Shown one piece after another: positions 14,118-48,373 of a stretch of 64,000 nt of DNA. The DNA is taken from NCBI GenBank assembly GCA_043228905.1, contig JBHGNT010000022.1:9982001-10046000 (forward strand), written 5' to 3'. A program made the translations under genes and the position numbers. Below the pieces are notes generated by a model. The model was not told where the DNA came from. It ran no database searches and saw only the letters and a program-made list of their open reading frames with translations. This DNA is from Azolla caroliniana (Eukaryota > Plantae > Polypodiophyta). Within the stretch, counting starts at the first letter, position 1, and the number at the start of each line of letters is the position of its first letter.

Positions 14118-14600
14118 CCATCACTTGGCCGATTCTAAGGGATGATGTGGCCTTGACGAGGTGTATGTTGCCTACCTATGCCACTCTACTCTCTATTAAG
14201 CCATCAATTGGCCGATTCTATGGGATGTTGTGGCCTTGACAAGGTATATGTAGCTTACATATGCCACTTTCCTTTTTAATTAGCCATCAATTGGCCGATT
14301 CTAAGGGATGATGTGGCCTTGACGAGGTGTATGTTGCCTACCTATGCCACTCTACTCTCTATTAAGCCATCAATTGGCCGATTCTATGGGATGTTGTGGC
14401 CTTGACAAGGTATATGTAGCTTACATATGCCACTTTCCTTTTTAATTAGCCATCAATTGGCCGATTCTAAGGGATGATGTGGCCTTGACGAGGTATATGT
14501 CACTTACCTATGCCACTTTCCTCTTTAATTAGCCATTACTTGGCCGATTCTAGGGATATGTGGTGGTCTTGAGGAGGTGCATGTCAACTACCCTAGGGTT
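14118..14600 (+). repeat. 83-bp tandem array (about 6 units, A-B-A-B higher-order 166-bp dimer) in the 5' leader of chromovirus B
   Basis: Units starting ccatca.ttggccgattcta at 14118, 14201, 14284, 14367, 14450 and 14533. Confidence 0.9.
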
Positions 14601-15577: not shown

Positions 15578-18500
15578 ATGGAACAAGTTTTGAACGCAGT
15601 TGGAACGATCTCTCCAAATGAGACCTCTCAACCCCAATCCGCATCTCGCACACAAGCTGAGATCACTATTGAGCAATTGCTCACTACTACCTTGAATCAA
15701 TTGGCCGAAATGAGACAGACCAATATGGCATTGGAAAAGAAATTCCAAGAATTAACTATTGAGTCCAAGAAAGAAGGTGAACCTTCCTTCGTAGTCACGC
15801 CTTTCAAGGGAGATAAGAAAGAAAGAACCGAGGAGGCTATTAGCACTTGGCTTGGTCGTTGGGAGTCTCACTTTGAGCTTCATCCCAAGCCCGATGCAGT
15901 AAAAATTGGTTATGTCGATCGTGAATTAGGTGGCCGAGCTGCTGCTTGGTGGCGTGGCCTAAGGACCGCAAAAAACTTACCCACAACTTGGGAAGGTTTT
16001 GTTGATGTTTTTAAACAATTCTTGCAGCCACCTTCTCAAACCGAACAAGCGCAACACTTGCTCACATTGTCTAGTAAGCCATTTACCTCTCTCGAGGATT
16101 ATGTGCATCACGCTCGGACCCAGATCCAAAAATCGGGACTTACGGGTGAGAAATGGTTTGTCGCTTGTTTTTTGAATGGTATTCCCAATGGGGATTATCA
16201 TTGGATTGTCCATGACAAGGACCCCACAACTTTCGAGGAAGCCGTCAACATTGTGCTGCGATACCATAGGACTTCCAAGAAAGACCACAATAAACCTGAG
16301 TTCGCCAAAACTCCGAATGTCAAGTTCATTGGGAAACGTAAGCAATCCAGTGACACTCTTGACCGCGACTCAAAGAAACCGAACCTCTTCTGTGCATATT
16401 GCAAGAAGCGGGGCCACACAAAGGATACCTGTTGTCGTCTTGAGAGGAAGTCAATGAACACCCCTCCTCAAGACAAATCTACGAGTCACACAGGTGAGTC
16501 TTTTGATATTGTTGAAGTTCATACCGATCACTTAAGTTTATGTGAATGCACTTTTCCTTCACATTTACTTGGACCTAATGATTTACTCCGAGCAGTCGGA
16601 TATATCAATGGAACACAAGCACATTTCTTGTTTGATTCCGGTAGTTCTCACAATTTTCTTAATAATCACTTTGTGCAGCAAATGGAGCTCCACATAAACG
16701 CAAGTGATCATATCTATCAAGTTCACATGGCAAATGGAAACGTTCAATACATCAGTGGCATTGTTTGTCAACTGCCAATTCAAATAGATACTTATTTGGA
16801 GAAGCTTGACTTTCATGTTATGAAATTACAATCCGCAGATGTCATTTTAGGATATCCTTGGTTTTTTAATAAAAACCCTTCTTTGTCCATTGATTGGGTT
16901 GATCACTCAATCACATTTGAACTTAATAATTGTAAACATTTTATTCAATGTTCCAAACTTCCTTCTCATTCACTTGTGTCTTCTAAATCATTAAGTGAGT
17001 ATTCTAGTTCATTAATTTATTCGTGTGTAATTGATCCTGCGGTTCAATTTTATTATTTTAATATTGACGCCACACAATTACCACATTTTGAGCAACGATT
17101 ACTCGACTCTATTTTAGAGGATTTTCAAGATGTGTTTCCTACTGAATTACCGCTTACTTTACCACCTAAACGTAATGTGGACCATCAAATTGAACTCATC
17201 CCTGGGGCTGCTCCTGTGAGCATTCCACCTTACCGACTTAGTCGATTAGAAGAGGATGAGATCGCTAAACAACTTAAGGAATACTTGAGTATGGGCCACA
17301 TTAGGTATAGTAAATCACCTTGGGGTGCGTCAGTTCTATTAGTCAAGAAGAAGGAAGGTTCGTGGCGAATGTGTATCAATTATCGCCGTTTGAATAAAAT
17401 GACAATTAAGAATGCATATCCATTACCTCGTGCCGATGATTTGATTGATCGTTTGCACGGGGCTCGATATTTTACGAAAATTGACTTACGAACTGGTTAT
17501 CATCAGATTCGCATCGCCGAGGATGATATTCCTAAAACCGTTTTTCGTACGCGCTATGGCCATTATGAGTTTTTAGTCATGCCATTTGGGTTGACTAATG
17601 CTCCAGCCACATTCCAACAAGAATGAATGATGTTTTCCGAGATCAACTCGGTGATTTTGTTGTCGTCTTCTTGGATGATATTTTGATATATAGCCGTACC
17701 TTGCAAGATCATGTTCAACATGTTCGATTTGTTTTGCGAAAGTTGCGTGACAACTCTTTCTATGCAAAACATTCAAAATGTGACTTCTTCCAAAAATCTA
17801 TTGTGTACCTAGGTCATTTAATTACAGAAAATGGCGTTGAAATTGAACCTTCTCGTATTGAAAAGGTTAAACTTTGGCCCATTCCTCGTAATATTCGTGA
17901 ACTTAGATCATTCTTAGGGTTTGTTGGATTTTTACGAAAATCAATTCGTAACTATTCCAAATTGACTACGCCATTAACTGACCTTTTAAAAGGTCATCCA
18001 CGTAAGTCTGTCAAACCAATTTCATGGAATGAACAACTTGACAAATCATTTGAGACACTCAAGGAGCATGTGTGTCAGGCTCCCACTCTTCTATTACCAG
18101 ACCCTTCTAAGCCTTTCTCAATTGAAACCGATGCTAGTGATTATGCTATTGGTGCCGTTCTTTATCAAGGCGGTCACCCTATTGCTTTTGAAAGTAAGAC
18201 GCTTGATGCTGCTCAATCTCGGTATTCGGTTCAAGAGAAAGAGTTGTTTGCGGTGATACACGCACTTAAAACATGGAGGCACTATCTCTATGGAAATAAA
18301 TTTGTGGTTACAACAGACCATCAATCATTAAAGTATTTTTGTGACCAGCCCGATCTTGTTGGTCGTAAAGGCCGTTGGGCTGACCTTATGCAAGATTTTG
18401 ATTTTTCCATACGATATCGCAAGGGTTCTATGAACACCGTTGCTGATGCTCTTAGTCGCATTAAAGAAGTTAACATGCTTAGCTTCACGGAAATAAAATC

Positions 18501-19977
18501 TGATCTTTTAGATCACCTTCGAGGGAAATACCTTGATGACAGTTATTTCTCAAAATACTGGACGAAAGCCGAATCTGGTTTAGATGCCGATACTAGCACC
18601 CTACCCTCGAAGGCGACCTTTCACATTACAAACGGTTTGCTCTACCGTAGTGGAAAGGTCTGTGTTCCAGATTTACCAAATGTTAAACAGAAAATTTTTC
18701 ATGAATGTCATGATGCACCATCTGCTGGTCATCCTGGAATACAACGCACACTCGTTCTCATCTCATGTACTTTTTTCTGGCCTAAGATGCGCTCTGACAT
18801 GCATAAATACGTAACTCAATGCTTACAATGTCAGATTAATAAGTCGGAACGACTTAAAGCTGCTGGTCTTTTACATCCCTTAGATATTCCCAACAATAAA
18901 TGGGAAAGTATCTCGATGGATTTTATTGTTAGTTTACCTCGTACACAGAGGGGTCATGATGCCATATGGGTTGTCGTTGACAAGCTAACAAAATTAGCTA
19001 GATTTATTCCTACAAAAACCACGGTAACCGCTCAACAGTTGGCTTATCAATTTGTTGATGAGTTATTTCGTTTTTATGGATTACCGATGGATATTGTTAG
19101 TGATCGAGATTCCAAGTTTACTAGTGACTTTTGGACTCAGGTCTTTAAGAAACTAGAAACTACGTTGAGCATGAGTTCCGCAGATCATCCTCAGTCTGAT
19201 GGACAAACTGAACGAGTTAATCAAATTATTGAGGACATGCTTCGAGCTTATGTAGCAAAAACCCCTTCTAAGTGGGAGCAATACCTTCCTATCTTAGAAT
19301 TTGCCTATAATAGCTCTAAACATACATCCACTGGATATAGTCCTTTTATGTTGATGTATGGTTTTCAGCCACGTGCCCCAGTTGATGTCACGATTCATCG
19401 TGATACATTAGACAGTACACGCAATTTTTTGCAAGACATGAACCAAATGTTGCATATTGCCAAAGAAAATGTCAAGATAGCTCAAGATCGTGCTCGATTT
19501 TATGCTGATCAGGATAGACGTCCTCGTGCATTTACTATTGGTCAAAAAGTTTTTTTGCGTGTCCCGACTGATTCTACGTCATTATCTACGGGCAAGTGCG
19601 CTAAGTTAGCCCCACGATATTGTGGCCCATTTGAAATCCTTAAGCGAGTTGGGTCATCTGCTTATCACCTTGCCTTACCTCGTAACGTTGGTATTCATCC
19701 TGTTTTTCACGTCAGTCGTCTAAAACCATTTTTAGGCTCTGGTGATAACACCATCACAATCCAAGATCTTGTAACATTAGAGGATTTTTCTTACAAACCT
19801 CATGTTCCTGAACGAATTCTTGATTCTCGTACTAAACGTTTACGTTCTAAAGAGATTCGGCTATTCAAGATCAAATGGATGGATAAACCTATTGATGATG
19901 CCACATGGGAACGCGAGCATTCGCTTAAGGCACAATTTCCTCACTTTATATTGCAAGAGTGCAATCTTTTGAAGTAG
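15578..19977 (+). CDS. Gag-Pol polyprotein of chromovirus B (gag, CCHC, PR, RT, RH, IN, chromodomain), broken by a single 1-bp frameshift near 17620
   Basis: [14 protein letters not shown]; [10 protein letters not shown]; [13 protein letters not shown]|MNDVF...VFLDDIL; [13 protein letters not shown]; [11 protein letters not shown]; GPF motif; C-terminal PERILDSR...IKW...DATWE. Confidence 0.93.
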
Positions 19978-20463
19978 GGGAGTATGTTATGTACACATAA
20001 CGTTGGTGAGGGTAGGTCACTAATATTTACATTAGTGAAGGGTATGTTCACTATTATTAAAAAGGGGACTAATGATTGGATAGAATGAATGATATGTGCA
20101 TGCACTATCATGATTTAGACAACCAATGAATAGAGAGCCTTTTAGAAAGGCACATCTATTCAAGGGGCCTAGGAAAAGGTATAAATATGAGGCTTAGCTA
20201 CCCTCATAGGGATCATCACGTCGGAAGGCTGCTGTCGTAGACACCGGTGGTGCGGGCTAGGCTTTCGTCTCGACGATCGTGTTTATCTCTTCCAAGGTAT
20301 TAGTCATCCTAATATCCGGCGGTATGGGACGTCGGTGGTAGGTTGGCTATGTCTAGATCATAGCTCGGGGGTGGTCGGGTGGAACGGGTTCTTCTATCCA
20401 ATCTATTTTCTTCCTTTTTACTTGATTTGGTCTATTGATTAGTAATAGACTCTTAACAAAACT

Positions 20464-20671
20464 ACACAGTGCGGTCGGGACGCGCGGATGCGTGGTTGGG
20501 ATTTTTGCGTGCGGACGCGTCTACGGTTTAGTTGCGACGCACGTATGGATTGCGCACGGGCTAAACTACACAGTGCGGTCGGGACGCGCGGATGCGTGGT
20601 TGGGATTTTTGCGCGTGGACGCGTCTACGGTTTAGTTGCGACGCACGTATGGATTGCGCACGGGCTAAACT
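20464..20671 (+). repeat. 104-bp tandem repeat within LTR X (a third copy at 13083-13186 is separated by element B)
   Basis: acacagtgcggtcggga...gcgcacgggctaaact at 13083, 20464 and 20568. A 21-bp atgcaactaaaagt repeat follows at ~20716-20800. Confidence 0.9.
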
Positions 20672-21251
20672 TTATGGATCATTGGGTCATTTGGCCGAAT
20701 TATACGGACGGTCGCATGCAACTAAAAGCCAAGGCCATGCAACTAAAAGTAAAAGGCATGCAACTAAAAGTAGAGGCCATGCAGCTAAAAGTGAGATGCA
20801 AAGTAACATTGGGAAGGGGGATCAACAAAGAGCTCGATATATGTTCCATTTTTTCCCTCTATATTTTTTTTCTTTTCTACTTCTCTCTCCCATTCCTTAG
20901 GGAAGAAATCTCTCTCATATTGATATCAGACCACTCCTTATATGGTTGTTGGCTCCTTCCTTTCAAGAATAATCTCTCTTATTCATATCGGACCACTCCT
21001 TACAAGGTTGTTGCCTACTTTCTTTTTTAAGAATGATCCGTCATTTTCATCTCGAACCCGTTTTAACAAGATTCTTGAATTATAAAAGAATCTATTTTCT
21101 TATGCAATAAACTAACATTTTCTCTCATCTACTCGTCTTATATGTGAATTGCTTGTGTTGTACGTGTTGCACTAAATCCTTCCAGTCCATAACCTCGGTG
21201 GTTCCGCCTCACGATCCGCACATAGTGACGGATTTTCACGACATAATTAAC

Positions 21252-21269
21252 TGGTGAACCCGACGTGAA
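21252..21269 (+). promoter_or_regulatory. Primer-binding site of X, complementary to the tRNA-Trp 3' end
   Basis: TGGTGAACCCGACGTGAA is the reverse complement of the plant tRNA-Trp(CCA) 3' end as recalled (TTCACGTCGGGTTCACCA). It is identical at 28684-28701(-), 29753-29770 and 37933-37950. Confidence 0.88.
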
Positions 21270-21292: not shown

Positions 21293-22480
21293 ATGGAGGC
21301 ATATAGATACAAAGAGCCGAAGCAATGTAACCTATACAAGTTCGACCAATGGGTATCATCAGTAAAGACCCACCAAAGTGCCATGCATGCTTTCGTTGAG
21401 TTCGAGTGTCGCTTTGCACAACTCTCGAAGCGGGATCAAAGATTGGTGGGGGTGGAAAAAGTCCTAATGTTTGTGAAGTCAATCGATTGGAAGGAAAGAA
21501 AGGCCATTGGAATCCGACTTGAGGATGATGATGGTGCAAATGGCCTCACTGAGGATTGGACAAAAGTGGAAAGAGTATGTCAACTACAAGATAAGAGGAA
21601 GACAAGATTCTCATCGACAACAACACAACCCACGGCGGATGGTGAAAGGAGGATAGGAAGCAACAACAAACTACCACCTAAAGAAGAGAGCTTGAAGAGG
21701 GAAGGTTCGATGGTACTCGACATAGAGGCCTTCATAAACGAGGCATATGAGAATTTAAAGGTGCAAGTCAAGGCCAAAGAGAATCTTATAATGGAACCAA
21801 AACCAATTAAAATGGTTATCAAGGAAGAAGAGACCTCCCAACAAAGGTGGAGTAATGATACGGCCAATACGAAGGCCCAAGTTCGGTACAACAACACCAC
21901 GGAAGAAGGTGTGGAACAAGACACCTTCTCGTCTTGCAAAGAAACAATGGCGAAGAATGAAACAAATGAATCGAGGGTGGCGAATGCCACTTCAAGCGAA
22001 GACAAATGTTTCAAAACACACATTGTATCTAAAACATCAAGTGATGAAGTGGCAAGCATGAGCAAAGATTGCATGATCAAGGGAAATAAAAAGTGTGAGG
22101 CCAACGTGATTGAGGAGATAGCCATGAAATATGACATCGAGTTAGAGGTGGCTATGGACGAGTCAATGGTGGATGGCTATGTCAAGACTTTTTCCACACT
22201 TGTTCCAAAGACTTGGACAGATGCGTCAGAAAGCAAACGTGAGACCCAAGAGACGGAAGGTGGCGGCGAGGAAGTGAAGGCCGAAGCTAACACATGCGAA
22301 GAAGAGGGAGACGTCAAAATGAAGAGGGTAGACGACGATGATGAAGAGACTTTCCCCACAAAAGTTCTTGAGACTTGGGCATTAACCAATGTAAGACCCA
22401 AGAGACAGAAGGTGGTGGTGAAGAAGCAAAGATCAAAGCCAATGCGAACAACCATAAGGCGGAAGTGGCTAGAAAGATAA
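21293..22480 (+). CDS. Gag capsid-like domain fused to an acidic low-complexity tail (element X), 3'-truncated by a deletion
   Basis: 395-aa ORF. FVEFECRFAQL...KVLMFVKSID...GLTEDWTKVERVC aligns with gag of G (LREFEENFARL...RVLLFVKSVD...GLTTDWAAVKKVC). The ORF runs into LTR C sequence at ~22471. Confidence 0.75.
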   Translation: MEAYRYKEPKQCNLYKFDQWVSSVKTHQSAMHAFVEFECRFAQLSKRDQRLVGVEKVLMFVKSIDWKERKAIGIRLEDDDGANGLTEDWTKVERVCQLQDKRKTRFSSTTTQPTADGERRIGSNNKLPPKEESLKREGSMVLDIEAFINEAYENLKVQVKAKENLIMEPKPIKMVIKEEETSQQRWSNDTANTKAQVRYNNTTEEGVEQDTFSSCKETMAKNETNESRVANATSSEDKCFKTHIVSKTSSDEVASMSKDCMIKGNKKCEANVIEEIAMKYDIELEVAMDESMVDGYVKTFSTLVPKTWTDASESKRETQETEGGGEEVKAEANTCEEEGDVKMKRVDDDDEETFPTKVLETWALTNVRPKRQKVVVKKQRSKPMRTTIRRKWLER

Positions 22481-23058
22481 TAAGAGCAAGAAATAGGAAT
22501 CCGATTACTTAATCAGTAGCTTACAACTCGAATAGTTAAAACAGGCAAACCGGTAGTGGACCTGACATAGGGTCCTACTCATGCACACGGGCGACAACCA
22601 CTCGACTCGAAGAAACAAAAAAAAGGGGGAGAGCCTTTACTGGAAGCACACGGGCTAGCCACGAAGTAGAGGCAGCGAACTCCCGACACCCATAGAGAAC
22701 GACGATCGGAGGAGAGAGAGCTCGGCACTCGGTTCTGCAGCAGCACTTCGTCCTCGCCAACACGCGATACCTTTTTCTTCCTTCTCTCCCTCCTTAAATA
22801 GTTTATTCCATGCCCCTCTCGACAAAGATACGCACAAATCCCCTAATAAATGTGTACTACCTAGTATTTACATCAACCGACCTAGTTATGAATCATGTAC
22901 AAAATATCAACTCTCGCGTCCACCCATGTAAGAGCCGGTTCATGCGCCTTTTTCTCCAATTCCGGCAATGGCCGGTTTTCTTCACGACATCCACCCCCAC
23001 CAAACCGCGCATCCACCGGCATGCGCCAGAGACGGGTAGATACCGAAGAAAACCGGCT

Positions 23059-26000
23059 TCACTCGTTGCTCTGCGATTCTTCGTCGGGCCCGAACTGATC
23101 GTCGTCGTCGCTCTCGTCCACGCCCTCCGGGTCCGGCTCATCCTCGAACTGCTTCTTGAAGGCTTTGATCTGCTTCCCGGCCACCGGTACCGCTAACCGT
23201 GTCCCGTCGAGTTCAGGTAGGTGGTATGTGTCGTTGTCGTTCGCGCTCGTCACCGTGTAGGGCCCGAACCATCTCCTCGCGAACTTTTGCACTGCCTTGT
23301 GCTGATTGTCGAGGCTACTATCGTACACCAAGACCCAATCGCCTTCCTCAATCTTCTTTGGTCGCAACAGGTGCGTCCGGTTGAACCGGGTCTTATTCCG
23401 CTCCCTTGCCGCTCATAGCTTTTCCTCCACCCTTTTCATGTCCTCCGGCCTCCGCTCGAGTTGCCGAATCCGCGCCGCCAGCAACTCCTCCCGGCTCATC
23501 TCGTCCTTCCAATGTACCGCCGCCCACAAAGATACTGTCCGTTCCACCGGCATGATCGGCTTCTGTCCATACATCAGCTTAGCCGGCATAAACCTTGTCA
23601 CCGAACTGTGCGTAGTTTGGTCCGCCCATAGTGCGTAAGGAAGGAGCCGCGGCCAATTCCCGACCTACCCTCCGCATGCACGCACTAATGCCTTTACGAT
23701 CGGCCCGTGCCCACGTTCTACCTTCCCGTTCACCTCCGGATTGTACGCCGTAGTGAGGGAGAGTTTGACCCCTAGCCGGTCGAATAGGTCCTCAGCTTCC
23801 CGCGGATCTAGCTCTCCCCGGTCCGCCACGATCCTCCCGACGCACCCGTATCGACACACTACCTCTTCGATTAGGAACCGGCATACCGCCACAGTTGTCT
23901 TGTTCTGCAGTGCACGGCCTCCCACCTGGTTCGTTAAGTCTTCCCGCGCAAGCACCAGGTATCGCATCTGTCCTACTCCCATCGGCATCGTCACCAAGTC
24001 TACCATCCACTTGAAATAGACCGTAGGCGGGTAGGTCGGGTGTAGGTTGTCCCGATGTCGGACTACGGAGTGCATCTGACCGCTTTCGCAAGTCGTTATG
24101 AACCGATGCACGTCCCGGTACAGCCCCGGCCACCAGTACTTCTCCTTCAGCTTCTCGAATGTGGCCCACATTCCGTAGTGCCCGGCCCAAGGACTCTCGT
24201 GAAATGCCACCAGTAATTGCTCCTGTTCTTCTTTCTTTACCACTACTCTGACTGGGATGCCATTTCTTTTCTTTGGGTGCCTCCATATGCACCCGTCCCG
24301 TAGGAAGAATCGGTACGACTTCTTCCGTACCCGGCTCGCCTCTTCTCTCATCCACGCTGCGTCCGACGCCACCGCCAGTAGGAACCTCCCGATTTGGAAC
24401 CACTCCCCGTCGTACCTACTTTCATCGAATTCGTTAAGCGCCGGAGTGTCCCCTTTCCTCGTCGTCACGTTAGCTGACCCGAAGAAGTCCTCGCCGACTT
24501 CTTCGTCATCCGAAACCATGCCGTCTTCGTCGTTGAAACTCGCTCTCGAAAGCATGTCGGCCATGGCGTTATCTTTTCCGGAGATGTGCCGTATCTCCGG
24601 GTTCAGGGACTTAATGTACGCTATCCACCGGAGCATTGCTAGGTCCGGCGTCGCGCATCCGGAAACCATGCCGAGTATCGGCAGGCAGTCCGTCTCGATG
24701 ATCACTTTCGTCCCGACCAGATAGTCCTTGTCGGCCTTGACTACCGAAACGATACCCCAAAGTTCGCGCTTAACTTGGGCGTATCCTCGCTGTCGCTCGC
24801 TCAATACCTTCGCCACGAACTGGATCGAGAAACGTACACCATCCTTGTCCTCCTGACTGATTACCCACCCAATCCCGATCGGGCTTGTGTCCACCGTCAT
24901 GCAAATGGGGACATCCTTGCCGTAAACCGCTTTTCGGAGAGCCAGTGCTACTGTACTGCTACTGTGCTACTGGACCGACTCCGTGTGCTCCGTCCTCCAC
25001 TCAAAGCTACGCCCCCTTTCAATAGTCCGTAGAGGGGTTTCGCGACATGTGCGTAGTGCGGGATCCAGATGTGGTAGAACGCGCATGCACCCAAGAATCT
25101 GCGAACCTCCGTAACCGATCCGCAATCGTTCCTCATTACAGAGATGGCCTCTACCTTTGCCAGAGACGGTTACCTACCGTAAGGCCCACACAGGTGTCCG
25201 ACCACCAGGATCTCTAACTACCCGAATGCCGATTTTGCTCCGGAGAAGGTGAGTTGTGCGCTCTCGAGCCTCTGCAACAACTTCTCGTAGTTGTTGATGT
25301 GGTTCACGACGAACCTCCGGCATCCGTTTGACCCGACAGTCTCGTCCGCATCTTCCACCGGACACCCCTTTACCGGGATGTTGTCCAAGAATGGCATGGT
25401 GATGTCCGGGATGCAGTCCCTCAGCACCTTGTTCATTGCGTTCACCATATGCACCACCGAATTCGTTCCGCCTTGCGGTAGGGTACACATCCGTACTAGG
25501 CCAAGAGGAGTTCGCATCATCGTGATATCCCTGCTCTCCACGGCTAGCTGGAATTGGTTGTACCCCGAGTATAAGTCACCGACCGAATAGATCGACCTTC
25601 TAGCGAAGGCCTCCGTGAACTCATCTATGGTCAGTCCGATCCCTGCATTACGGATGGTCACCATGGTGACTGGTTGCTGGTCCTGAATGAAGTGTAGCGT
25701 ACCGTTCTTCTTCGGTACCATAAACCACCAATTCGAATATCGGGTACTGGACGGTTTGAGGATGCCCATCTCCACCTTTTTCTTCAGAAGCTCCATCAAC
25801 TTCGGGATGTGAGCTCTCGGCACTGGAATCGGTTTGATATTCCACGGTACATGCGGTACCGTGAAGATCACTATCGGTTCGACGATCGTCGGGTCCACGC
25901 ACCCGATCTCCTCCGGCGAGAACGTGAAGGCTTTCCCATTGCTTCCGAGCATTCTCCGAAACCTGTCCTCCTCCGCCGGTAGTAGAAAGCCACCCCCACT

Positions 26001-28660
26001 GACCTTGAGTTCCCGTAGCTTTATGTCGGTGAACCAGTGCCCTATGCCAGCCGGATTCCGTAAACTTGGGTCCGACGCGACCCCTTTTATCCGCTCCTCG
26101 CTTCCCCTTGTCAAGGGTGCCGCGATTGGCCTCACCTTCCAGTCCACAGTCTTGTACTTTCTATCTACGCGGGCCGTCCGATCCGACCCGATCCTTTCCC
26201 CGAAATCCGCGATGACTTCGTACATTCCCATCGAACTAACCGGAACGGTCTGGTCTTCTCTAAGGTCTTCACAGATCACCTTTTGCAACTTGCCCAAGGG
26301 GTCGTCAAAAGAGACCGCCTCCACGGCGCCACTGATTTCTTCGTCGGGGCAGAGAACTCCGCATCCCCTGAGCCGCTCCTCCGCTCACTTCCTCTCCCGG
26401 CCGCTGACGCCGGCTATAGTACAACCTCCGTTTTCGGAGAACCAAAACTTCCTACCTACTGTACATGTGTGGGATTCTTCCGGTACGTCCGGACTACCGC
26501 GACCCCACGCCTTGATAGCCCTCTCTAAAAATCCCCTCGGTTGTCACCACCGAGGGTCTCGCGATTCCTTTCATGGTTCAGACGTACGGTCATGAACTGG
26601 ACAGAATGCCGACTGTCTTGGCTCTTGACGCGCGTGTATGCCGAACCGTTGTCCAGCACCTTCGTCTCCATGCGTGTTGCCGTAATGTACGGTTCGCCGA
26701 GAATCACCGGGTGCGAGGATATTTCCTGCACGAAGAAATGTTGATCTATCTCGACGTCACCGATCTTTACGCGTACATTTGGGCACGCACCATGCAACTC
26801 CTCCATAGCACGCGTCGCCGTGCATATCTTCCACCCATGCTTGGTGTTGATCGGCCATTTACCCTTCTTGTAGAAATCCATGGACATCAGGTTGATTTCG
26901 AATCCATGGTCTACCAAGGCCACCACCGGTTCCGGAACGTCGCCGATCCGAACAGGGGTTTCCGTAGTTGCCCTGGCCCAATGCGGCTTCTCGTAGTGGC
27001 TTTCCGCCAACTCGTCTTCTAGGGCCGTGTCTTTTTAAGTGCGTAGTTCGCACCTCCACCAGCTTCTCCGGTTCTGGCTCTGTCGAGAGACTCTTCCGCT
27101 TCACCAAGTCTACGATGTTGTCGTGGAACTCCCTCTTGGCGATTCCCAGCACCTCCCGCAACGACAACTCCACTTTACTGTCGAGGATCCGCTCTTCAAG
27201 GACCTTCCGTAGGTCCGTTGCTCTCTCGATTTCGGTGCTCAACTGAAACCCCGCCCGTATCCTCCCATCCGGCGCGCTTGGGTTGCTGACACCGGTCGGT
27301 TTCGGTCCGAACCGGGTTTCGTACCTCTACAGGGGACCGACCCCTCCGACCTTCCCTACCCATTTGTCTTCAACCAGAACCTCGTAGTTCTGGCAAGCGG
27401 CTTCTACGAAGCCCGTTTTCTCTTCGACCGGATCGTCCCATCCGGTGACCTCCTGGACCCGTTGTTCCTCGCGGTCTGCCTCTTCCTTCTTCAACTGAAC
27501 TCCGGAGAGGCCTTCTAGCACTAGCGGCCAGAATCCGAAGTCTTTAGCCTTCTGGGTCTCATCATCGCCGACCCAAATTCCCGCCGACACTGAGTAGTTA
27601 ACGGCTTCTACATGTCGTGTCGCGGCTTCTTCCATCAACCTCTTCATTCCGCTGCACCCCGTATTTAGTTCTACGGCTCTCCAGGTCTCGCTCGCGTGCA
27701 CCCGCCCGTTCCAGAGCTACACCACGTTGGTCTTGAGTGCGTCGGCGTAATCCGCGCAATCCTTCCGAATGTGACCGATCGTGTCACACCACATGCACCG
27801 TTGCCCAGCCGGCGGCCTCCGGTTGCGAGGTTGTTTGTCGTTGTCTCTCCGGGCCTATGCTATCTGCAAGTCGCGCACCATCTGTATCAGCTCCTCTAGA
27901 GCCGCTCCTCCGGATGGGCCTTCGACCACGTCGTTCGATGCAGACCCCGACTCCAGCCAAATTCGGGTCTCTTCCTTCCTACCGGCTGGCACTAATCTCG
28001 GCTCCTCGAGCCTCCTCGCCGGGACCGGTCCTGACTCCGACAAGCTTTCGTCACTCCACTCACGCCCTTTGTCGAATCGGTTGCAGACCCGTTTTACCAT
28101 GGCCCAATCTACCGTGAGCCCTTCGTCCGTCTCCAGTAGGGGACCCACCTTCTCCCTGTCGAGTGCGTCCACCGACTTGACAAACAGTAGTACTCGACTC
28201 GTTTCGAGCATGGTCCGGTCCAACGTCGACAGCCGCGCGAATCGTTTTTCGAACTCCTGGAGGAACGCCGACATGTTCCTCCCTTTTCCGGGCCTTTCCA
28301 CCCACACCATGAAGTCCCGCCGTAACAACCGAAGCGAGTCATCAAACCCGTACTTCTCGAGGAGCTGCAGCTCGAACTCCTCCCAAGTCTGGCATCCGGC
28401 CAGCACCTCGGGCACCTCCGAGTGGATGCTCGGCATCACCACCCGAGGGAATCCGGACAACCGCCTGTCCACCGGGATATCCCTCATGATCATTTGGGCC
28501 CGGTAAGCCTCCAAATAACTTGTGGGATTCTTCCCACCGAATCCGCCTATGCTGCCGACGATCAATTCAATGGCTCTGTCGAGTGTACCCGTCCCCTCGC
28601 GAGCGCTCACCATCCGGTCGACGGCTACCGCCATTGCCTCTACTAGCTTCGATCCCCTCA
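23059..28660 (-). pseudogene. Disrupted gag-PR / RT-RH-IN of element C
   Basis: Multiple ORF fragments collinear with the ORFs of G (MRGSKLVEAMA..., ALVDHGFEINLM, PFLDNIPVKG, TVDTSPIGIGW, IVADRGE, WFGPY), with stops and frameshifts. Confidence 0.92.
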
Positions 28661-28986
28661 TCTTCCGACACCTTTGCCGCTTGTTCACGTCGGGTTCACC
28701 AATTATGTCGCGAAGTTTCACGCATGCGTGTAGGAAGAGGCAGGACCACGGGGGTCTTGGACCAAGGAGAGACTGAGAGAGACTGAGAGAGTTGCGGACA
28801 CACAGAAAGAAAATAAGAGCAAGAAACAGGAATCCGATTACTTAATCAGTAGCTTACAACTCGAACAGTTACAACCGGCAAACCGGTACTGGACCTGACA
28901 CAGGGTCCTACTCACGCACACGGACGAGAGCCACTCGACTCAAAGAAATAGAAAAAATGGGGAGAGCCTCTACTATCAACACATAG

Positions 28987-31900
28987 TGTCGTGAAAATTT
29001 CGGCCAGAAGCGGAAACCAGGAAATATTGGCTACATCGACGGGGTGCAGCATGTGCAATCACCCTTGTACATTTAGTGTGAATAACAAGGGCGCCTTTAT
29101 GGCGCCGAAGAGTAGACAAGTCGGGACAGAGAATCCCATGTAAGTCGGGATTTATCCCACATTGTAACGCATCTCCCTCTTTGTTCTATAAAAGGAAGGG
29201 AGCGCCTCTTGTGAAGGGGTTGCCCATTTTGTGTTAGAGGGTATACCGTTAGATTTAGGGTCAATTCTTCTACTTCTTCTTCCTCTTCTTCGCGGTGTGG
29301 GTGGACTGTGGAGGGTTGTTTCTGCTCGGTCTCCTGTGCAAGACCCCGCTCTGCATGAACAGCCCGAGAGCTCCCCGGACGACGGCTTGGCTGCAGATTG
29401 CTGTTGTAACCTACCCTAGCTTGGTCTGGCTCGAAGCTGGGGTTGTATTATTTCCCTTGTAATACATACATTTGCGTCTGTCTGTGTATATTCGTGTCTC
29501 TGTTGGTGTCGGGTGCTTCCCCTTTCCGGCGTTCCTGCACATAAAGGCGTGAGTCGGGTCGGCATGTGTGTGTGTGTGCGCGTGAGTCGGTGTCAAGCGC
29601 GCGCTCCCTCTCTATCTCCCTCTCTTTCTCTCTCTCGTTCGGTTGCTTCCAGAATGCGTCCGGAATCATCTTCTCGGCTTCCTTCCTTCCCTCGTCCGAG
29701 AGCCCCGTGGTCCCACCCTTCTACACGCACGCGCGAAACTTCGCGACATATTTGGTGAACCCGACGTGAAGGGCGGCAAGGGAGAATGGAGTTAGAAGAC
29801 GACTTCGTGCAACTTTTCGTCGAAGCGGTGAGGGAGTTTGGTCGAGCGACAGCAAGGGGAGAGTCGGCGTAGTAAGCGGTCGAGCGAGTGGTCGAAAGAG
29901 TCGCCGTTTCAACGGGTACAAAGTCCCATCTTACTTGGAAGCCTACAACATGGAAATGGAGGAGTGAGACGTGGACGAAGCGTTGAGGCTGGAGTTCTTC
30001 TGTCGGGCTGTCGCCGTCCGTATGCACGCGGAAGTGATGGAGCTCCGAGAAGCTCATAGTTCGTGGGAGGCCTGTGAAGAGGCGCTCCTGCAGGTATATG
30101 GAGGATGGCGGAAGAGCCGGGGATGACACGCCTTCGACCAGTGGGTAGTATTGGCAAAGAACCACCGGGGCGCAACGAAGGCGTTCCGAGAGTTCGAGCG
30201 ACGGCTTGCTCTGCTCCCGGAGCGGGAACAAGGTTTGGTGGGGGCAGACAAAGTCCTATTGTTCGTCAGGTCGATCGACCGAGCGGAACGGGAGGCCATT
30301 GGGATTGACCTCGAAGGCGATGACGGACCGAATGGGCTTATTGAGGACTGGTCGAAGGTCGGAAGGGTGTGCCAATGGCTAGACAACGAGCGAGCCCAAA
30401 AGGCTAAGAGGAAGGCGCACGATGGCGCGCCATCACAACGGGAAGAGGCCGAACGGCAAAGAGTGTCGGCAAAGGTCGGCGTTGGGGCCAGGATTGCAGA
30501 GGTGTACGCAGCTCTCGAGGCAATGCTCGAGGAAGAGGAAAGATCGAGGCCGCAAGCCAAGACTGAGGAGACGAACTTGCCCCACGCGATGGCGGAAGAT
30601 CAGTACCACGGTACCACGGGAGAGGGTGCGGGACAGAACGCCCTCTCGACTTGCAGAGATAGAACGGCGAAGGACGAGGCCGAGATACCGATCGCGGAAT
30701 CAGATAGTTGGGACCAACGGTTTCGGGTGTGTCAGCCCGAAACCCCGGACATCGGAGAAGCAAGCCCAGGCAGGGCTTATGTGATCAGTAAGGAGACGAC
30801 CGCCGACCATGAAGAGCCGGTGGCTATGGACAAGGGCGTAAAACGGACGGGCGATTCTTTGTGTCTTCCCACACTTGCACCCGAGACGATGGTAGTCGGG
30901 CCCGAGTTCCCACGTGAGTCCCAAGAGGAGGAAGGTGCCGGCGAGAGACCGAGAATCACTGATGAGACGATACGGGGAAGGAGCGGACGAAAGCCCTCGG
31001 ACACGTTTCTAGAGAACTCAACATTCGGGCTCTTATGCTCATGTAAGACCGAGGAGATGGATGGTGGTACCAAGGAGTCCTGGCACGATGCCAGCGAAGA
31101 TGGATGGGGGATGTCCTACAAAAGGGTCGATGAAGAGACCAAGGAACGACCCGACCAAGGACCGAACCGCGAGACGCTCCGATACGGGTGGAGCGTAATC
31201 CGGTCGTGGATTGTTCGATCGGGGCCGGATTCGGCATGAAGGTGGCGATATGGGAGAGGGTGCGGGACGAGCCACCCTCTTTTACATGGGGAGAAAGACC
31301 GACCAGGTGAAGGTCGGGAATTGGAAGGAGGATGCTCAGAGGTTCGGAACGAGTCTGGCAAGGTCAGCATAGGAGCCGAAACTCCGGACATTGGAGAATC
31401 AAGCTCAAGCGGGGCTTGATTGATCATACAACGGATGCTATCCACCGACACCACTAAAAGGGGCGGTGGCCCAGACGAGTTGCCGAAAGACGTTGCGAAG
31501 TCGGTTACGCCACATCCTATTTGGAGACTTCGGTTGTTCGGCCGACATGGCAACGTAAGACCAAAGAGAAGGTAGATTGAGGCGGGAACGCAGCAAGGAG
31601 AGCGATGACGAGTTCGGGAGAAGTGCGGGGAACGAAGATCGGTCCCATGAGATCTTCACACTGATCCGGCCGTCGGCCCAAGTGCTGGCGTGAGTCCTAT
31701 AGGAGAGATCGGTGGCGACAGGAGAACGGGACCCAACAATTCAGAGAATGAAGAACGGACCCGGACGAGAACCGGGCGGAGCGGACTCCCGGATAACCAT
31801 TCCGGGAGGGAGGAAGAGAGCAGGCCTATGAAGAGGCCGAGAACACGGTACGTCGGTACCACAGGAGAGGGTGTGGAGCGAGCCACCCTCTCGGCTTGCG

Positions 31901-33780
31901 AAGGAAAGAAAAACCCGGGATAATCGTCAAGGATACGACGAGCCCAAGGAGGATCCTTCACACCGGTTCCAGAGACTCCGGCGGTCGGCCCGAGAGCCGA
32001 CGTGAGACCTAGAGTGGTGATCGGTGGCGGAAAGGGGACGAAGGCGAGGGAACTGCGGACAGGTGGTCTACGGAGATCGTCACACCGATCCGGCGGTTGG
32101 GCCGAGTGCCGGCGTGAGTCCTATAGGAGAGGTCGGTGGCGGCAGGTGAACGTGATCGGACGACGGAAGCAGAGAAAGAAGGTATCAGGCCGGCGACGCG
32201 GCTACTAACCGAATCGGACCTACCGGCAAGGTCACGAGCATAAGGAAGTCCGGTCCTACGGGATCCCCACACCGATTCCAGAGACTCCGGCTGTTCGGCC
32301 AACGTGGCAACGTAAGATCGAGGGAGAAGGAAGGTGGCAACGGGAAATGAGGCCCGACTACACGGAAGACACGAGGAGAGTCTAGGAGGGACTCAAACAA
32401 AGACACCCTGAATTTCGGCAAGTAACAAAACGAAGACCGGTCCTATGGGATCTTCACACCGGTTCCGGAGACCCCGGTTGTTCGTCCAACGTTGCAACGT
32501 AAGACCGAGGGAGAAGGAAGGTGGCGGCAAGGAATGGGACCCGGCATCGACAAAGGTCGGTAAGACGGGGCAGACGAAGTGCGAAACCCCTACCGGCCGG
32601 TTACGGTTTTGGAAGGAGCCGGTAGGGGCAAACACGGGAAGGTATGTCGGGCCGAAAAGGTACACTTGGGGCGGAACAAGACTCTCGCAAGTGGCCATCG
32701 CGGGCCAGATCGAAGTGTGACTACGGGACGGTGTTCGGCATGGCCGGTGCCAAACAAAGCGAGCGCGAAGAATGGGTTGCACAGTTCCGAGGTCACGCGT
32801 AGAAGACCGGAGAAGGATCCTCCACACCGACGTAAGATCTTGGCAGTCCGAGCCGACGTGGCGACGAAAGACCAAGGATAAGGAAGGTGGCGGCGAGGGG
32901 ACTAAGGTAGTGGGGAACAATGCGAGACGACGACCAGGAACACGCGAATGGTCGACGGAGGCCAGGTGAGCGACTACGGGCGTTCCTCAAGCGGAGGAAA
33001 TCGGGCATACAACGGAGAGTGGAGCGTGCATACGGCCGAACAAGGGCCAACGGAAGTATGCGGACTACGGAGATCGTGGCGAAGGACCCATCGACGGGTC
33101 GAACAAGCCTATGGGGAGGTAAGCGCCAAGGAAGAACCGAAGCCGACGATTCAAACCGGCAACGAGCCGGGATGCGGATTACGGAAGACCGGTTTCTCAC
33201 CAGCCGAAATCTCTCACCCTTCACCAGATTTGGCACGTACCCGTGGACGTGCGGTTTGGTGGGGGCGGATGTCGTGAAGAATTTCGGCCAGAGGCGGAAA
33301 CCGGGAAATATTGGCTACATCGACAGGGTGCAGCATGTGCAGTCACCCTTGTAAATTTAGTGTGAATAATGAGGGCGCCTTTATGGTGCGGAAGAGTAGA
33401 CAAGTCGGGACAGAGAATCCCATGTAAGTCGGGATTTAACCCACATTGTAACGCATCTCCCTCCTTGTTCTATAAATGGAAGGGAGCTCCTCTTGTGAAG
33501 GGGTTGCCCATTTTGTGTTAGAGCGTATACCGTTAGATTTAGGGTCAATTCTTCTACTTCTTCTTCCTCTTCTTCATGGTATGGGTGGGTTGTGGAGGGT
33601 TGTTTCTGCTCGTTCTCTTGTGCAAGACCCCGCTCTACATGACGAGCCCGAGAGCTCCCCGGACGGCGGCTTCGCTGCAGACTGCTGTTGTAACCTACCC
33701 TAGCTTGGTCCAGCTCGAAGCCGGGGTTGTATTCTTTCCCTTGTAATACATACATTTGCGTCTGTCTGTGTATATTCGTG
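28987..33780 (+). mobile_element. Element D: gag-only non-autonomous LTR element of the tRNA-Trp group, inserted in the 5' LTR of C
   Basis: 5' LTR 28987-29748, PBS 29753-29770, PPT ggtttggtgggggcgga 33253-33269. The 3' LTR starts at 33270 and is interrupted by Copia E at 33781. No PR/RT/IN similarity in the 3.5-kb interior. Confidence 0.9.
29900..31239 (+). pseudogene. Degenerate gag capsid plus acidic tail of element D
   Basis: RFNGYKVPSYLEAY...MHAEV...SWEACEEALL (one stop), then ORF 30151-31239 with FREFERRLALL...KVLLFVRSID...GPNGLIEDWSKVGRVC. Tail repeats continue to ~32900. Confidence 0.75.
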
Positions 33781-36700
33781 TGAAAAGTAGCGTGCGGAAG
33801 CAAGTATGAAGACCGAACAGAAGGAAGGAAACTCAGGTTTAATGGAGAGCTTGAGCTTACACAGTATACGCGGGAGAGACAGAGAGAGTGAGAGAGAACA
33901 CAAGAACTATATTCAACAATAATACTCAGTCTGTACATAAGACGTGCTCAGTGAACACTTTTATACAAGTCCTAGAAGGACTGACTGAAGTACTGACAGT
34001 ACTTCAATGCTCATCAAGAGCTCCTACACTAACTCCCAAATATATTCCTCACGGAATATCTTTCCTAACAACCTCCCGGTTTACGCACTCGGCCTAACCG
34101 ATCGGTCCCAACCGATCCGGTCCTCGGCTTCTTCAGCCGATCAGGCCAATGTTGAGCTTGTCTCTCAACACTCCCCCTCAAGCTCAACTCGAGGCTCTTC
34201 GGGATCCTCGGGCTCATAGCTCTGGTTCCTCCTGGCTTCATGCCTAGCTTGCGCTCCTCGACCTGTTCGACTCCGCGCGCTTCGACCCTTCCGGTCGGCT
34301 TGTCTGCTCATGCGGCCCTTATCAGCTCTTCTGCTGTTGCGGTGTTGACGCTTCTCCTGCTGCCTTTTCTTTCGCTTGGGCCTCGGTTGATTCAGCGTAT
34401 CTGAATCAAATATCCGAACCGACTCGGCTACTTCCGATCGGTTTTCACTCTCGTCCGAGTTGGCTGTCTCCAACTCGTCTTCGGTCTTCTCGTCCTCAAT
34501 TGCGTCATCTCCCTCATGCGTGGTTGGCATCGGCTCCCTCCTTCGGTTGCTCCCCTTTTGTCCGCTTTCGGACTTTTCCGTGGGTCCGCCCTCGGCTTCT
34601 TCAGCCGATCCGAACTCGAACTCGACAACCGAGTCAACCGACTCAAACTCGGTTTCGCGGTCTCCGTTCCTTTCCTGCTTCCTTGCTTGGTCGTTCGGGA
34701 CTGTTCTCCCCCTCAAGTAAGCCACGTCGAGGTGGCGCAACTAGAGCACACCGGAGAATTGCCGCAACTTGTCCAGACCATGCGGCTTTGTGAAGATGTC
34801 GGCTGTCTGCCGATCCGTCGACACGTAGTGAATTTCGACTTCACCGGAAAGGACACACTCACGGACGAAATGGTAGTGCACCTCAATGTGCTTGGTCCGT
34901 GCGTGAAAAACGGGGTTCTTCGCGAGTTGGATGCTGTTGAGGTTGTCGCCGTAGATCGTCGTCGGATCTGACACCTCCACGTGCAGGTCCTTAAGTAGCC
35001 GCTTCAACCATATGGCTTCGCATGTCGCGACAGCCGCTCCTCGGTACTCAGCTTCTTACTGGACCGCGCGATCGCGGCACTCCTGAGGGAGAACGCGTAT
35101 CCGGACGTGGATTGGCGATCGGCGGCGTTGCCAGCCCAATCAGCATCGGTGTAGCCGACTAACTGTGTGGCTGCACCGGTCCGATATAGCAGTCCGCGGT
35201 CCTTAGTGCCGCTTACGTATCGAAGTACGCGTTGCGCACACTGAAGGTGCTCCTCGGTAGGTCGCACCATGAACTGACTGATCACCCTGACCGGATAACT
35301 GAGGTCGGGTCGGGTGATGGTCAAGTATATGAGGCTTCCAACAATTTGTCGAAACCTTGTCGGGTCGCATTCCTTTCCCGTATCGGGACGAAGCTTGACG
35401 GTTTTGTCCAGAGGAGTCGAGACGGACTTACAGTCGGCCATCCCGAGCTTGAAGAGCATACCCATCACGTAATGACGTTGGCTGATCAATATGCCTTCGG
35501 GGGTACGGATCACTTCGATCCCGAGGAAGTAATGAAGGTCCCCCAACCCTAAACGTCTCATCGTAGTCGATGCCATGTTTCTGCACGTAGCCCTTTGCCA
35601 CTAGCAAAGCCTTCTGCCGGTTGACCGAGCCATCGGTGTTGTACTTGACCTTGTACACCCACCTACACCTGATCGGTTTTACCCCTCTTGGTGCGTCAAC
35701 CAGGTCCCAGGTCTCGTTCTCCGCCAATGCGTGCATCTCTTCTTCCATCGCGGCACACCAATTCGCGTTTTTAGCCGCTTCTGCGTAGCTCTCCGGCTCA
35801 CGCACTTCCGCTACACGGGTCATGTACGCATAATGATGCGCCATGTACTCGTTGTATCCGAACCGCAAAACAGGATTCTTCTGGCGGGTAGATCGGCATA
35901 ATCTCACATTAGCTGATGTCGAGGCCTTCTCGGTCAACGCGGTCTTCACCTTTAAAGACCCATCACCAGTTCCCTCGGAGTCGGACTCGCGTCGGTCTGA
36001 CTCGTTCTTATCCATGCCGGAATCCGACACCTTCTTCTTCCCTTTCTCTTTGCGCGTAAGCCGTCTCTTCGGCTTCCTATGTAGGGAATGCACGGTCGAG
36101 TCTCCACTACTCGCCGGCTCTTCATCGGACTGATCGTACCGACTCAGTCGTCCAATCGGTCCACTTAAGCGGAGTGAAATCGGACTCTCTTCGCGGGTCT
36201 CGATTTCGGGCTCATCCGAAGGCATCTCGACCTCGCTAACCTCATCGTCAGAACACGGATTGGACTCGGGGTTCGGAGTCGGGGGCTGGTACCAGGACAC
36301 GGACTCGTCAACCACAACGTTGTGGCTAACACGCGCTTGTTTGGTGCGAGGGTTATAGCACTTATAACCCTTCTGCTCGTCCGAGTAACCGACCAAGATG
36401 CATTTCTCGGCCTTTGCGTCCAACTTCCTCCTTTTCTCCTTCGGTATATGCACATACGCAATGCTACCGAACACCCTCAAGTGTCGTAAGTTCGGCTTTG
36501 TTCCGAAGTATAGCTCGTGCGCCGACACCTTGTCTCCGATCCGGTTCTGGATGTATACCGCGGTCCTTACCGCCTCGGCCCAGTAGAACTTGGGCAAGCT
36601 CTTCTCCTCCAGCATTGCCCGTGCCGCTTCCACAACTGACCGATTCTTTCTCTTGGCCACGCCATTCTGCTCCGGCGTGTATCTACAACTGAATTCGCGG

Positions 36701-37972
36701 CGAATTCCCATTTGTTGTAGGTAACCGTTGAATTGACCGGAAAAGTATTCTTTCCCGCCATCCGACCGTAGGCACTTGATCTTTCATCCCGTTTCCGTTT
36801 CCACGAACCCTTTGAGGTCCCGAAAACAGTTGAAGACTTCGCTCTTCCTCTCAATGAGGTAGATCCACGTGTGCCGCGTGTGGTCGTCGATGAAGGAGAC
36901 GAAATATCGGCTCCCGCCAAGACTAACGTTTTGTGGCGGCCCCCATACATCGGAGTGTATAAGGTTGAGCTTATTCCGGCTCCAGTTTCACTCGTTTGGG
37001 AAAGGAAGTCGGTGTTGCTTCCCGAGCTGGCAGGCTTCACAAATTTGTGCCTTTCAGCCACTAAATTTGGGCAATCTGAATACTACCTTTTTCGATTGCA
37101 GATCTTGAAGCCGTTGGTGGTTGACGTGGCCTATCCGCTGTCGTGAAGAAAACCGTCCATAGGCGGAATCGGCAGACCAAGGCGTGGGAACCAGTTCCTC
37201 ACGCGCGCACGCTCCAAGTCGAACATAGAAGCGAGCTAGGAGGATAATCGGCAGGAACGGGCCCTAACACGAGTGGAGACAAAGACCGCGCGAACAGTCT
37301 TTTCGGTCGCGCGCGCGAGCTAAGGGACGGCACGAGTCGGCGGCGTAACTACGCGGATGCGTGAAGAACGGAGCGGATCCCTGTTCGAAAGGGACAGGGA
37401 ATAAAGCTGACATGACGGCTTGCTCGTCGGCCTATATAAGGAGCAAGAAAGAGCTGTTGCGATCATCTCGGGCAGAGAGGACGAAGTGCTGTCGGACCGT
37501 TTCGGGACGCTTCTCTCTCTGTTTCCTTCCTTCTTGAGCTCCATAGCTTTCTGTGCAGGCTTCCGAGGAGGCTCGCGCTGTTTCGAGGAACGCCCGAGTG
37601 CTTCCGGCAGCACCTCCGACCCGCTACCCCTTTGTGCGTCGAAGCGAACAGGCATCGGCATCTGTTCGCCGGCCTGTTCGGTTGCAACCAACCTGTGCCC
37701 CATCGAGGGTTGTAGTCGTGTTAGACATTTTGTTAATATACATATTTAGTCATTCGCATCTGTCTGTGTCGGTGTCTGTTCGCGTTCTCCGTGCTAAAGG
37801 GCCGTGTCCCTGTGTATCCCCGGTCCTGCGTAGCCGGTTCTCTCTCTTTCTCCTCCCTGCTTGCTCTTTGGTTCGAGACCCCCGCGGTCCCGCCTCGTTT
37901 TCACACGCACTTGCGTAATATCTCGACATCTTTGGTGAACCCGACGTGAAAGAGGCGGCAGAAGAGCAGAAG

Positions 37973-48258: not shown

Positions 48259-48373
48259 GTTTGAACCAATTTTGCCTACCTTCTGTCTCTCTCATTTCCT
48301 ACTAATCTTTTATTCCTCTTTTCTTTCATACCATGGCCACTGTTAGCGCTGAAGAATATCAATCTGTTTTCTA

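What the first reader, a model, noticed from the sequence alone, without database searches (positions are those of the whole stretch)
21293..33269. Two pol-less partner families encode a capsid fused to a conserved acidic repeat tail
Seen: X and D share PBS and termini with autonomous C and G (D also the PPT), but have their own LTR bodies. D has no PR/RT/IN between intact ends. Their Gags share an insertion absent from autonomous Gag (EDDDGANGL / EGDDGPNGL versus TEDGL) and lack the CCHC knuckle. Similarity continues into the non-Gag tail: YNNTTEEGVEQDTFSSCKETMAKNE vs YHGTTGEGAGQNALSTCRDRTAKDE, and STLVPKT...KRETQETEGGGE vs PTLAPET...PRESQEEEGAGE. Inference: these are not simple deletion derivatives but an old, separately evolving gag-only lineage (TR-GAG-like) that borrows Pol in trans and may co-assemble with or interfere with helper particles. 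The 3' interior of X is deleted, so its lack of pol is inferred from its similarity to D.
Basis: partly seen in the sequence, partly recalled or inferred. Interest (0 to 1): 0.75.

Follow-up and report, generated by a model that had tools for sequence, protein, structure and literature searches.

The report
Enzyme-less retrotransposons keeping whole or half capsids
These two jumping genes belong to one old group that has lost its copying enzymes and likely borrows them from intact relatives; the group keeps its capsid gene under selection, in one family only the predicted C-terminal half, while the long tail behind it stays readable but drifts freely in sequence.

Summary
Core confirmed, with four corrections. 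X and D are copies of dispersed, pol-less families. No same-strand pol lay between primer site and PPT in 30 of 30 D-type or 32 of 32 X-type copies. Their capsids form one clade apart from all 14 autonomous Gags in the tree (C-lobe tree 100/99). They share the 4-bp NCGN target of the autonomous elements, a Phygy-like trait.

Corrections:
(1) The tail is not conserved as protein (dN/dS 0.8-1.0 against 0.14-0.34 for the capsid); only its open frame is kept.
(2) The 'insertion' is ancestral; C and G lost it.
(3) X encodes only the capsid C-lobe, family-wide, still under purifying selection; another family keeps only the N-lobe.
(4) X's LTR end matches a third autonomous family, not C or G.

Three TSD-flanked hybrids (autonomous 5' LTR, gag-only interior) point to shared particles. 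Gag-only partner clades are known (TR-GAG; barley Sabrina/WHAM). The mobile half-capsid and the frame-only tail were not found in my searches. Likely mechanism: the nascent capsid domain docks its own RNA on helper particles. This is untested; expression and binding are not shown. The scan's index held no look-alike.

The parts
11901..21243 (+). X 5' LTR, interrupted by a solo LTR (12241-12953) and a chromovirus (13187-20458); CCGT target site before it
21252..21269 (+). X primer-binding site, shared with D, C, G (tRNA-Trp type; label recalled, from no call)
21293..21600 (+). X ORF start: capsid C-lobe only, N-lobe deleted family-wide; under purifying selection
21601..22471 (+). X linker and repeat tail, open frame, dN/dS near 1; cut at the deletion junction with C's 3' LTR
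22471..28974 (-). C: decayed autonomous Ty3/gypsy element nested in X (start of its 5' LTR at 49320-49468)
28987..29748 (+). D 5' LTR; only its last 64 bases resemble C's LTR (84%)
29753..29770 (+). D primer-binding site
29786..31239 (+). D gag: two-lobed capsid, helical linker, disordered tail, no knuckle; broken in this copy, 479-485 aa and open in many relatives
31240..33269 (+). D 3' non-coding region of decayed repeats, some related to the tail module, ending in the PPT; no pol
33270..33781 (+). D 3' LTR, first 512 bases (93.8% identical to the 5' LTR), cut by a Copia insertion
37139..44439 (+). G: young autonomous element (LTRs 99.1%), CCGC target duplication, gag with knuckle, RT-RH-IN, no chromodomain
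49473..50236 (+). X 3' LTR remnant followed by CCGT; last 69 bases 87% like autonomous family L283

Best explanation
X and D are copies of an old single clade of pol-less LTR retrotransposons that likely replicate inside particles built by several autonomous Phygy-like families, and their retained capsid domain likely acts in cis to bring their own RNA into those particles.

Shown: no pol; one clade; same primer site, PPT type and 4-bp NCGN target as the autonomous elements; capsid lobes under purifying selection in replicating lineages, including the lone C-lobe of the X family; tail free to change in sequence but purged of stop codons.

Inferred: (1) RT, RNase H and integrase come in trans. 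(2) Gag-only and autonomous RNAs share particles, which would explain hybrids joined at the primer site and the swapped U5 ends. (3) The capsid domain folds first and would dock on an assembling helper lattice while the ribosome is still reading the long tail, so the RNA is tethered without a zinc knuckle. The tail would then matter for its length, not its sequence.
For: Pol-less: 30 of 30 D-type and 32 of 32 X-type interiors without same-strand pol, 17 of 17 further relatives, and 0 of 12 gag-only capsids with pol among 40 consecutive primer sites.
Clade: 100/99 on the C-lobe, 14 rows against 14.
Target site: 15 of 24 elements with both ends called have a 4-bp TSD, 14 of 15 NCGN.
dN/dS on internal branches: D N-lobe 0.34, C-lobe 0.14, tail 0.83; X C-lobe 0.22, tail 0.81; between families 0.29, 0.31 and 1.01; X C-lobe stem 0.23, internal 0.34. 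The signal holds outside CG/CHG sites (X C-lobe 57:18 singletons against 5:10 shared, p = 0.002).
Stops in linker plus tail: 29 per 590 singleton replacements against 2 per 285 shared, p = 0.001.
Hybrids with matching TSDs: L107, L168, L232. Family Y is a chimera: N-lobe 72/103 identical to autonomous L253, C-lobe 64/94 to D.
Against: Protein and RNA expression are not shown.
Gag-only capsids are far less constrained than G's (0.04) and only about 30-45% identical to any autonomous capsid sampled, apart from Y's N-lobe, which may be too far for co-assembly.
Tip branches also give dN/dS of 0.46-0.65 in the C-lobe, so my codon model is imperfect or tips hold unsampled replication.
Family Y's tail gave 0.38 (p = 0.03). 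Family X3 gave erratic values (C-lobe 2.4, tail 8.0) on very short internal branches.
The N-lobe-only family multiplied without a C-lobe and its N-lobe constraint is not significant (0.44, p = 0.09), so neither lobe is indispensable.
The N-lobe tree does not resolve the clade (47% of bootstrap trees).
Only 40 of 5527 primer sites were censused, so an unsampled autonomous member of the clade is possible.
Confidence: 0.55

Rival explanations
1. Full-capsid gag-only families (D, W, X3, Y) build their own shells and recruit only Gag-Pol. The half-capsid families ride in those shells, and the lone C-lobe joins a gag-only lattice rather than an autonomous one.
For: The X C-lobe is 63-75% identical to C-lobes of full-capsid gag-only families but 24-39% to autonomous ones. 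LTR hybrids also occur between gag-only families, for example L150 with a D-type 5' LTR. D has both lobes in the model.
Against: Pol must still enter, and in G it lies downstream of gag-PR in the same element, so some mixing with helper Gag is expected (inference). Compatible with, rather than exclusive of, the best explanation.
Confidence: 0.2
2. Translation matters only for RNA fate. An open frame running to the PPT would protect the RNA from nonsense-mediated decay, and the capsid signal is a leftover of past function or of recombination with full-capsid families.
For: Intact X1 and X3 frames end within about 100 bases of the 3' LTR or inside it. The tail is neutral but stop-purged. Either lobe can be lost. 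Recombination is frequent.
Against: dN/dS is 0.22-0.34 on branches inside the N-lobe-less clade, and its 25 C-lobes are monophyletic with X2 (bootstrap 94). The nearest full-capsid C-lobes are only 67-77% identical. D carries 1.8-2.7 kb of 3' non-coding sequence.
Confidence: 0.15
3. The lone C-lobe works like Ty1 p22/p18: it would poison helper lattice assembly and limit helper copy number.
For: Same architecture as p22 (C-lobe without N-lobe; PMC8458377, abstract and Discussion part 1 read). The model matches capsid C-lobes including Drt2 (Z 6.5, rmsd 3.0, 86 residues).
Against: X is a mobile family (at least 60 exact junction copies) that needs working helper particles. Selection on its replicating branches is hard to explain by harming the helper (inference). 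Helpers are abundant and young.
Confidence: 0.07
4. X and D are independent recent deletion derivatives of neighbouring autonomous elements with decaying frames.
For: Both window copies are damaged.
Against: AU tests reject nesting. The tails gave no tblastn or blastn match inside 10 autonomous elements except at the PPT end. 25 of 51 frameshift-free D-type copies have no stop.
Confidence: 0.03

Closest known systems
Barley RLG_Sabrina / WHAM / Derami (Wicker et al. 2017, PMC5738225; passages read)
   Same: A clade of high-copy pol-less Gypsy families from one non-autonomous ancestor; gag retained to differing degrees; DNA similarity to the helper limited to the LTR 3' end and primer site.
   Different: Athila lineage in a grass. 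The passages read report no selection test, no single-lobe capsids, no frame-only tail and no helper hybrids.
TR-GAG elements (Chaparro et al. 2015, PMC4350172; abstract and Discussion read; mobility shown in PMC8704663, passages read)
   Same: LTRs, primer site, PPT, one gag ORF, no pol, many dispersed insertions.
   Different: Defined as under 4 kb with 5-bp TSD and seen as separate derivatives per species. Here 3.7-5.8 kb, 4-bp NCGN TSD, no knuckle, long neutral tail, one deep clade using several helpers.
Phygy non-chromovirus Ty3/gypsy lineage (Neumann et al. 2019, PMC6317226; passages read)
   Same: NCGN target preference, short elements with the polyprotein filling the interior, no chromodomain in G.
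   Different: Described from Physcomitrella as autonomous elements. RT placement of C and G was not tested here.
Ty1 p22/p18 and Drt2 (PMC8458377 abstract and Discussion part 1; PMC10951436 search listing only; PDB 9rxy)
   Same: Capsid C-terminal lobe without the N-terminal lobe.
   Different: p22 comes from an internal transcript of an autonomous element and Drt2 is domesticated; both restrict transposition. X is a multi-copy mobile family of another superfamily whose C-lobe is the start of its only ORF.

Membership tests
TR-GAG | Two LTRs, primer site and PPT | tested here: met
   30 of 40 D-type and 32 of 40 X-type loci have primer site and PPT
TR-GAG | Single gag ORF, no pol | tested here: met
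TR-GAG | Length under 4 kb | tested here: not met
   D 5.0-5.8 kb, X1 about 4.8 kb; only X3-type copies (3.7-4.0 kb) fit
TR-GAG | 5-bp target duplication | tested here: not met
   15 of 24 have 4 bp, none 5 bp
TR-GAG | Gag precursor with capsid and nucleocapsid | tested here: not met
   No CCHC in four intact ORFs; X lacks the N-lobe
TR-GAG | Transcribed | tested here: inconclusive
   No run on record as RNA was listed
Phygy-like non-chromovirus Ty3/gypsy (helpers and cis signals) | NCGN target preference | tested here: met
   14 of 15 gag-only TSDs; G CCGC, X CCGT
Phygy-like non-chromovirus Ty3/gypsy (helpers and cis signals) | Short element, RT-RH-IN, no chromodomain | tested here: met
   G 7.3 kb; Pfam RVT_1, RNase H, Integrase_H2C2, rve and no Chromo
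Phygy-like non-chromovirus Ty3/gypsy (helpers and cis signals) | RT/RH/INT group with Phygy reference sequences | not tested
Ty1 p22/Drt2-type restriction factor | Capsid C-lobe without N-lobe | tested here: met
   Model pLDDT 90; top 34 VIA rows are all capsid-type domains, best Arc C-lobe Z 8.2, rmsd 2.9, 81 residues; sequence alignment to the second lobe
Ty1 p22/Drt2-type restriction factor | Made from an internal transcript of an autonomous element, or a fixed host gene | tested here: not met
   Dispersed mobile family, 60 exact junction matches
Ty1 p22/Drt2-type restriction factor | Binds Gag and blocks transposition | not testable with these tools
   Needs an experiment

The most novel reading that the evidence does not exclude
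A satellite-like clade of retrotransposons has reduced Gag to a single capsid lobe used as a cis-acting docking tag. The lobe folds on the nascent chain and binds a helper lattice, while a long, sequence-free tail keeps the ribosome and the element's own RNA attached, replacing the zinc knuckle. C-lobe-only (X) and N-lobe-only (Z) families are two independent solutions, and the clade switches helpers by taking their LTR ends at the shared primer site.
Probability: 0.3. Interest if true: 0.78.

Novelty: new variant of a known kind. Interest (0 to 1): 0.52.

Why it matters
Why pol-less elements keep gag is left open in the TR-GAG paper (PMC4350172, Discussion). Here selection can be split by domain: capsid lobes constrained, tail free but stop-purged, knuckle gone. 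That points to a co-translational, cis-acting role and makes it testable with small soluble domains. A mobile element living with a p22-like half capsid would show that the architecture known as a restriction factor can also serve a parasite. About 12 of 40 censused primer sites belong to the clade, so it is a sizeable part of this lineage in the genome, and Pfam found no family in the X or D ORFs, so pipelines would miss it.

Tried and rejected
- Pfam found nothing in the X, D, C or first G gag frames; capsid identity rests on models and fold searches. Foldseek gave no E <= 0.001 match for either model.
- ESM Atlas gave no usable hit for the tail.
- IQ-TREE codon runs did not yield omega, so I wrote a branch-class GY94-type model.
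- The X1-stem test failed through rooting and was redone.
- Mis-framed rows (winD, winC) were my errors; trees were rebuilt. One search dropped 17 rows (16 near-copies and one C-lobe-less row). Its grouping of L253 with the clade is an artefact of the Y chimera.
- The indel control is weak: D's 3' non-coding part has 8 of 8 shared indels out of frame against 1 of 1 in frame in the tail, but it is about eight times more diverged, so I do not lean on it.
- Expression: no RNA holder listed; contigs of a run only guessed to be RNA cover scraps. No evidence either way.
- A degenerate pattern for the N-lobe-only junction found only 5 places; the protein search replaced it.
- Hybrids L136, L150 and L166 could not be tested for TSDs.
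- Literature searches for a precedent of mobile half-capsid elements found none; subscription journals and supplements were not seen.

Full report
Setting. The window lies in a nest of LTR retrotransposons in a 523-Mb genome. X runs from 11901 to 50236 between CCGT target copies and holds a solo LTR, a chromovirus, C, D, a Copia and G. Its interior is cut at 22471, where it meets C's 3' LTR. D starts at 28987 and loses its 3' LTR at 33781. G is young and autonomous. All four share one primer site, of which the genome has 5527 exact copies.

Pol is absent family-wide. I fetched 10 kb around 40 of 111 D matches and 40 of 126 X matches. Thirty D-type and 32 X-type loci had both primer site and PPT; the rest lacked one or the other. 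None had same-strand pol between them; two X-type loci held antisense pol of nested elements. Interiors are mostly 3.3-4.2 kb for D and 1.8-2.4 kb for 29 of 32 X-type. Seventeen of 20 more distant relatives had both signals and no pol. Among the first 40 primer sites of contig C1, 22 had pol, 12 had a gag-only-clade capsid and no pol, 5 had an autonomous-type gag with no pol found, and 1 was unclassified. LTR pairs differ by 0.8-5.6% (27 D) and 0.6-10.2% (19 X-type), so movement went on over a long time. Fifteen of 24 elements with both ends called have a 4-bp TSD, 14 of them NCGN. PMC6317226 (passages read) gives this preference to Phygy alone among plant lineages.

One clade, not nested. On whole capsids, D and X group at 100/100 on a 0.64 branch. 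On the C-lobe, 14 gag-only rows stand apart from 14 autonomous rows at 100/99. AU tests reject D with C and X with L283. The N-lobe tree is unresolved. The three-residue 'insertion' is also in autonomous L253, L255, L283 and L260, so the short form is a loss in the C/G clade. The tails match nothing inside 10 autonomous elements except the PPT end; their origin is unknown.

What the ORFs encode. Intact D-type ORFs are about 480 aa. The model has two helical lobes, a long helix and a disordered tail (pLDDT under 50 past residue 257). Best matches are dArc1 (Z 11.0), Arc and Copia capsids. X is different. Its ORF starts 41 bases after the primer site and enters the second lobe after a few residues. 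None of the 30 best X matches has an N-lobe, and the 23-base junction occurs 60 times exactly. The model of window 21317-21628 has pLDDT 90; the top 34 structural matches are capsid-type domains, led by C-lobes (Z about 8 is middling for helical folds, so sequence alignment carries part of the weight). A mirror family, Z, keeps the N-lobe and has lost the C-lobe: 150 matches listed, junction motif in 18 of 23 copies read, four copies with PPT and no pol.

Selection. With a branch-class codon model on natural copies, internal-branch dN/dS in D (51 copies) is 0.34 (N-lobe), 0.14 (C-lobe), 0.55 (linker) and 0.83 (tail, p = 0.22 against 1). In X1 (28 copies) it is 0.22, 1.05 and 0.81 for C-lobe, linker and tail. 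Between families it is 0.29, 0.31, 0.90 and 1.01. G's capsid is 0.04. With outgroups, 25 X1 C-lobes are monophyletic with X2; dN/dS is 0.23 on their stem and 0.34 inside, equal to full-capsid relatives (0.33). A count of singleton against shared variants agrees, also outside CG/CHG sites. Stops, however, are purged from shared variants in linker and tail (29/590 against 2/285, p = 0.001). These sets were chosen as frameshift-free top matches. Against this reading: tips also fall below 1 in the C-lobe, Y's tail gave 0.38, X3 was erratic, and Z's N-lobe (0.44) is not significant.

Who helps. The last 55-70 bases of the LTR tie D to the C/G clade (40 of 44), Y to L253 (23 of 24), and window X to L283/L255; most X1 copies (23 of 28) match no sampled helper. 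Four of 62 elements with both ends typed, plus L232, carry an autonomous 5' LTR joined at the primer site to a gag-only interior and its own 3' LTR. The three with both flanks readable have matching TSDs: L107 ACGT, L168 ACGG, L232 ACGC. That is about 1 in 4000 by chance given NCGN (my arithmetic); L232 has a complex 5' part. Integration as one unit fits a strand transfer between co-packaged RNAs better than ectopic recombination (inference). Y is a stable chimera with an L253-type N-lobe. An unchecked note (e1-10621211) reports a two-family hybrid in another lineage of this genome.

Mechanism. Purifying selection on replicating branches of a pol-less element implies that the protein helps its own RNA (inference). 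A domain that folds early, followed by a tail whose length but not sequence is kept, and no knuckle, fits co-translational docking on a helper or mixed lattice. I put this at 0.55, with own-shell assembly 0.2, RNA stability 0.15, p22-like interference 0.07 and simple decay 0.03. That the elements are a pol-less clade mobilised in trans is much firmer, about 0.9.

Comparison and verdict. The overall design is known: TR-GAG (PMC4350172, PMC8704663), the barley Sabrina/WHAM/Derami clade (PMC5738225), and 28 GAG/PROT-only families in beet (PMC13570524, passages read). It works like a TR-GAG but fails the size, TSD and complete-Gag features, so I do not file it there. New in my searches: Phygy-like partners, single-lobe families with a constrained C-lobe, a frame-only tail and direct helper hybrids. 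Supplements were not read. No look-alike was in the scan's index. New variant of a known kind; interest 0.52.

Noticed in passing
L268, L270, L280, L281, L291-L310; L259: Family Z keeps only the capsid N-lobe, with open frames up to 1291 codons; L259 shows a second, different C-lobe deletion.
   Followed up: partly
L002, L003, L008, L155, L161: Subfamily X2 has a new leader of about 35 residues before the lone C-lobe; by eye it resembles the Gag start of autonomous L255, and its U5 is of that type.
   Followed up: partly
L118:3734-5731 and L171-L200: Family Y: young, at least 104 matches, N-lobe and LTR from autonomous L253 type, C-lobe and tail from the gag-only clade. Its pol-less state was seen only in the copy nested in L118.
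   Followed up: partly
L136, L166: Tandem LTR-interior-LTR-interior structures joining different families at primer sites.
   Followed up: partly
window 46261-48259: A 273-base sequence in inverted orientation (98.9%) flanks a chromovirus integrase fragment next to the 100-N gap; rearrangement or assembly artefact.
   Followed up: no
window 13187-20458: Very young chromovirus (LTRs 99.8%) inserted in X's 5' LTR, with 83-base tandem repeats at 14025-14592.
   Followed up: no
window 58266-63624: Young Copia element with an intact 1399-codon frame and LTRs 99.7% identical.
   Followed up: no
window 38972-40099: G's gag-protease frame matches Pfam DUF4100; its capsid has no Pfam match.
   Followed up: no
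window 12241-12953: Solo LTR with ACGT target duplication and a D-type U5 end inside X's 5' LTR.
   Followed up: partly
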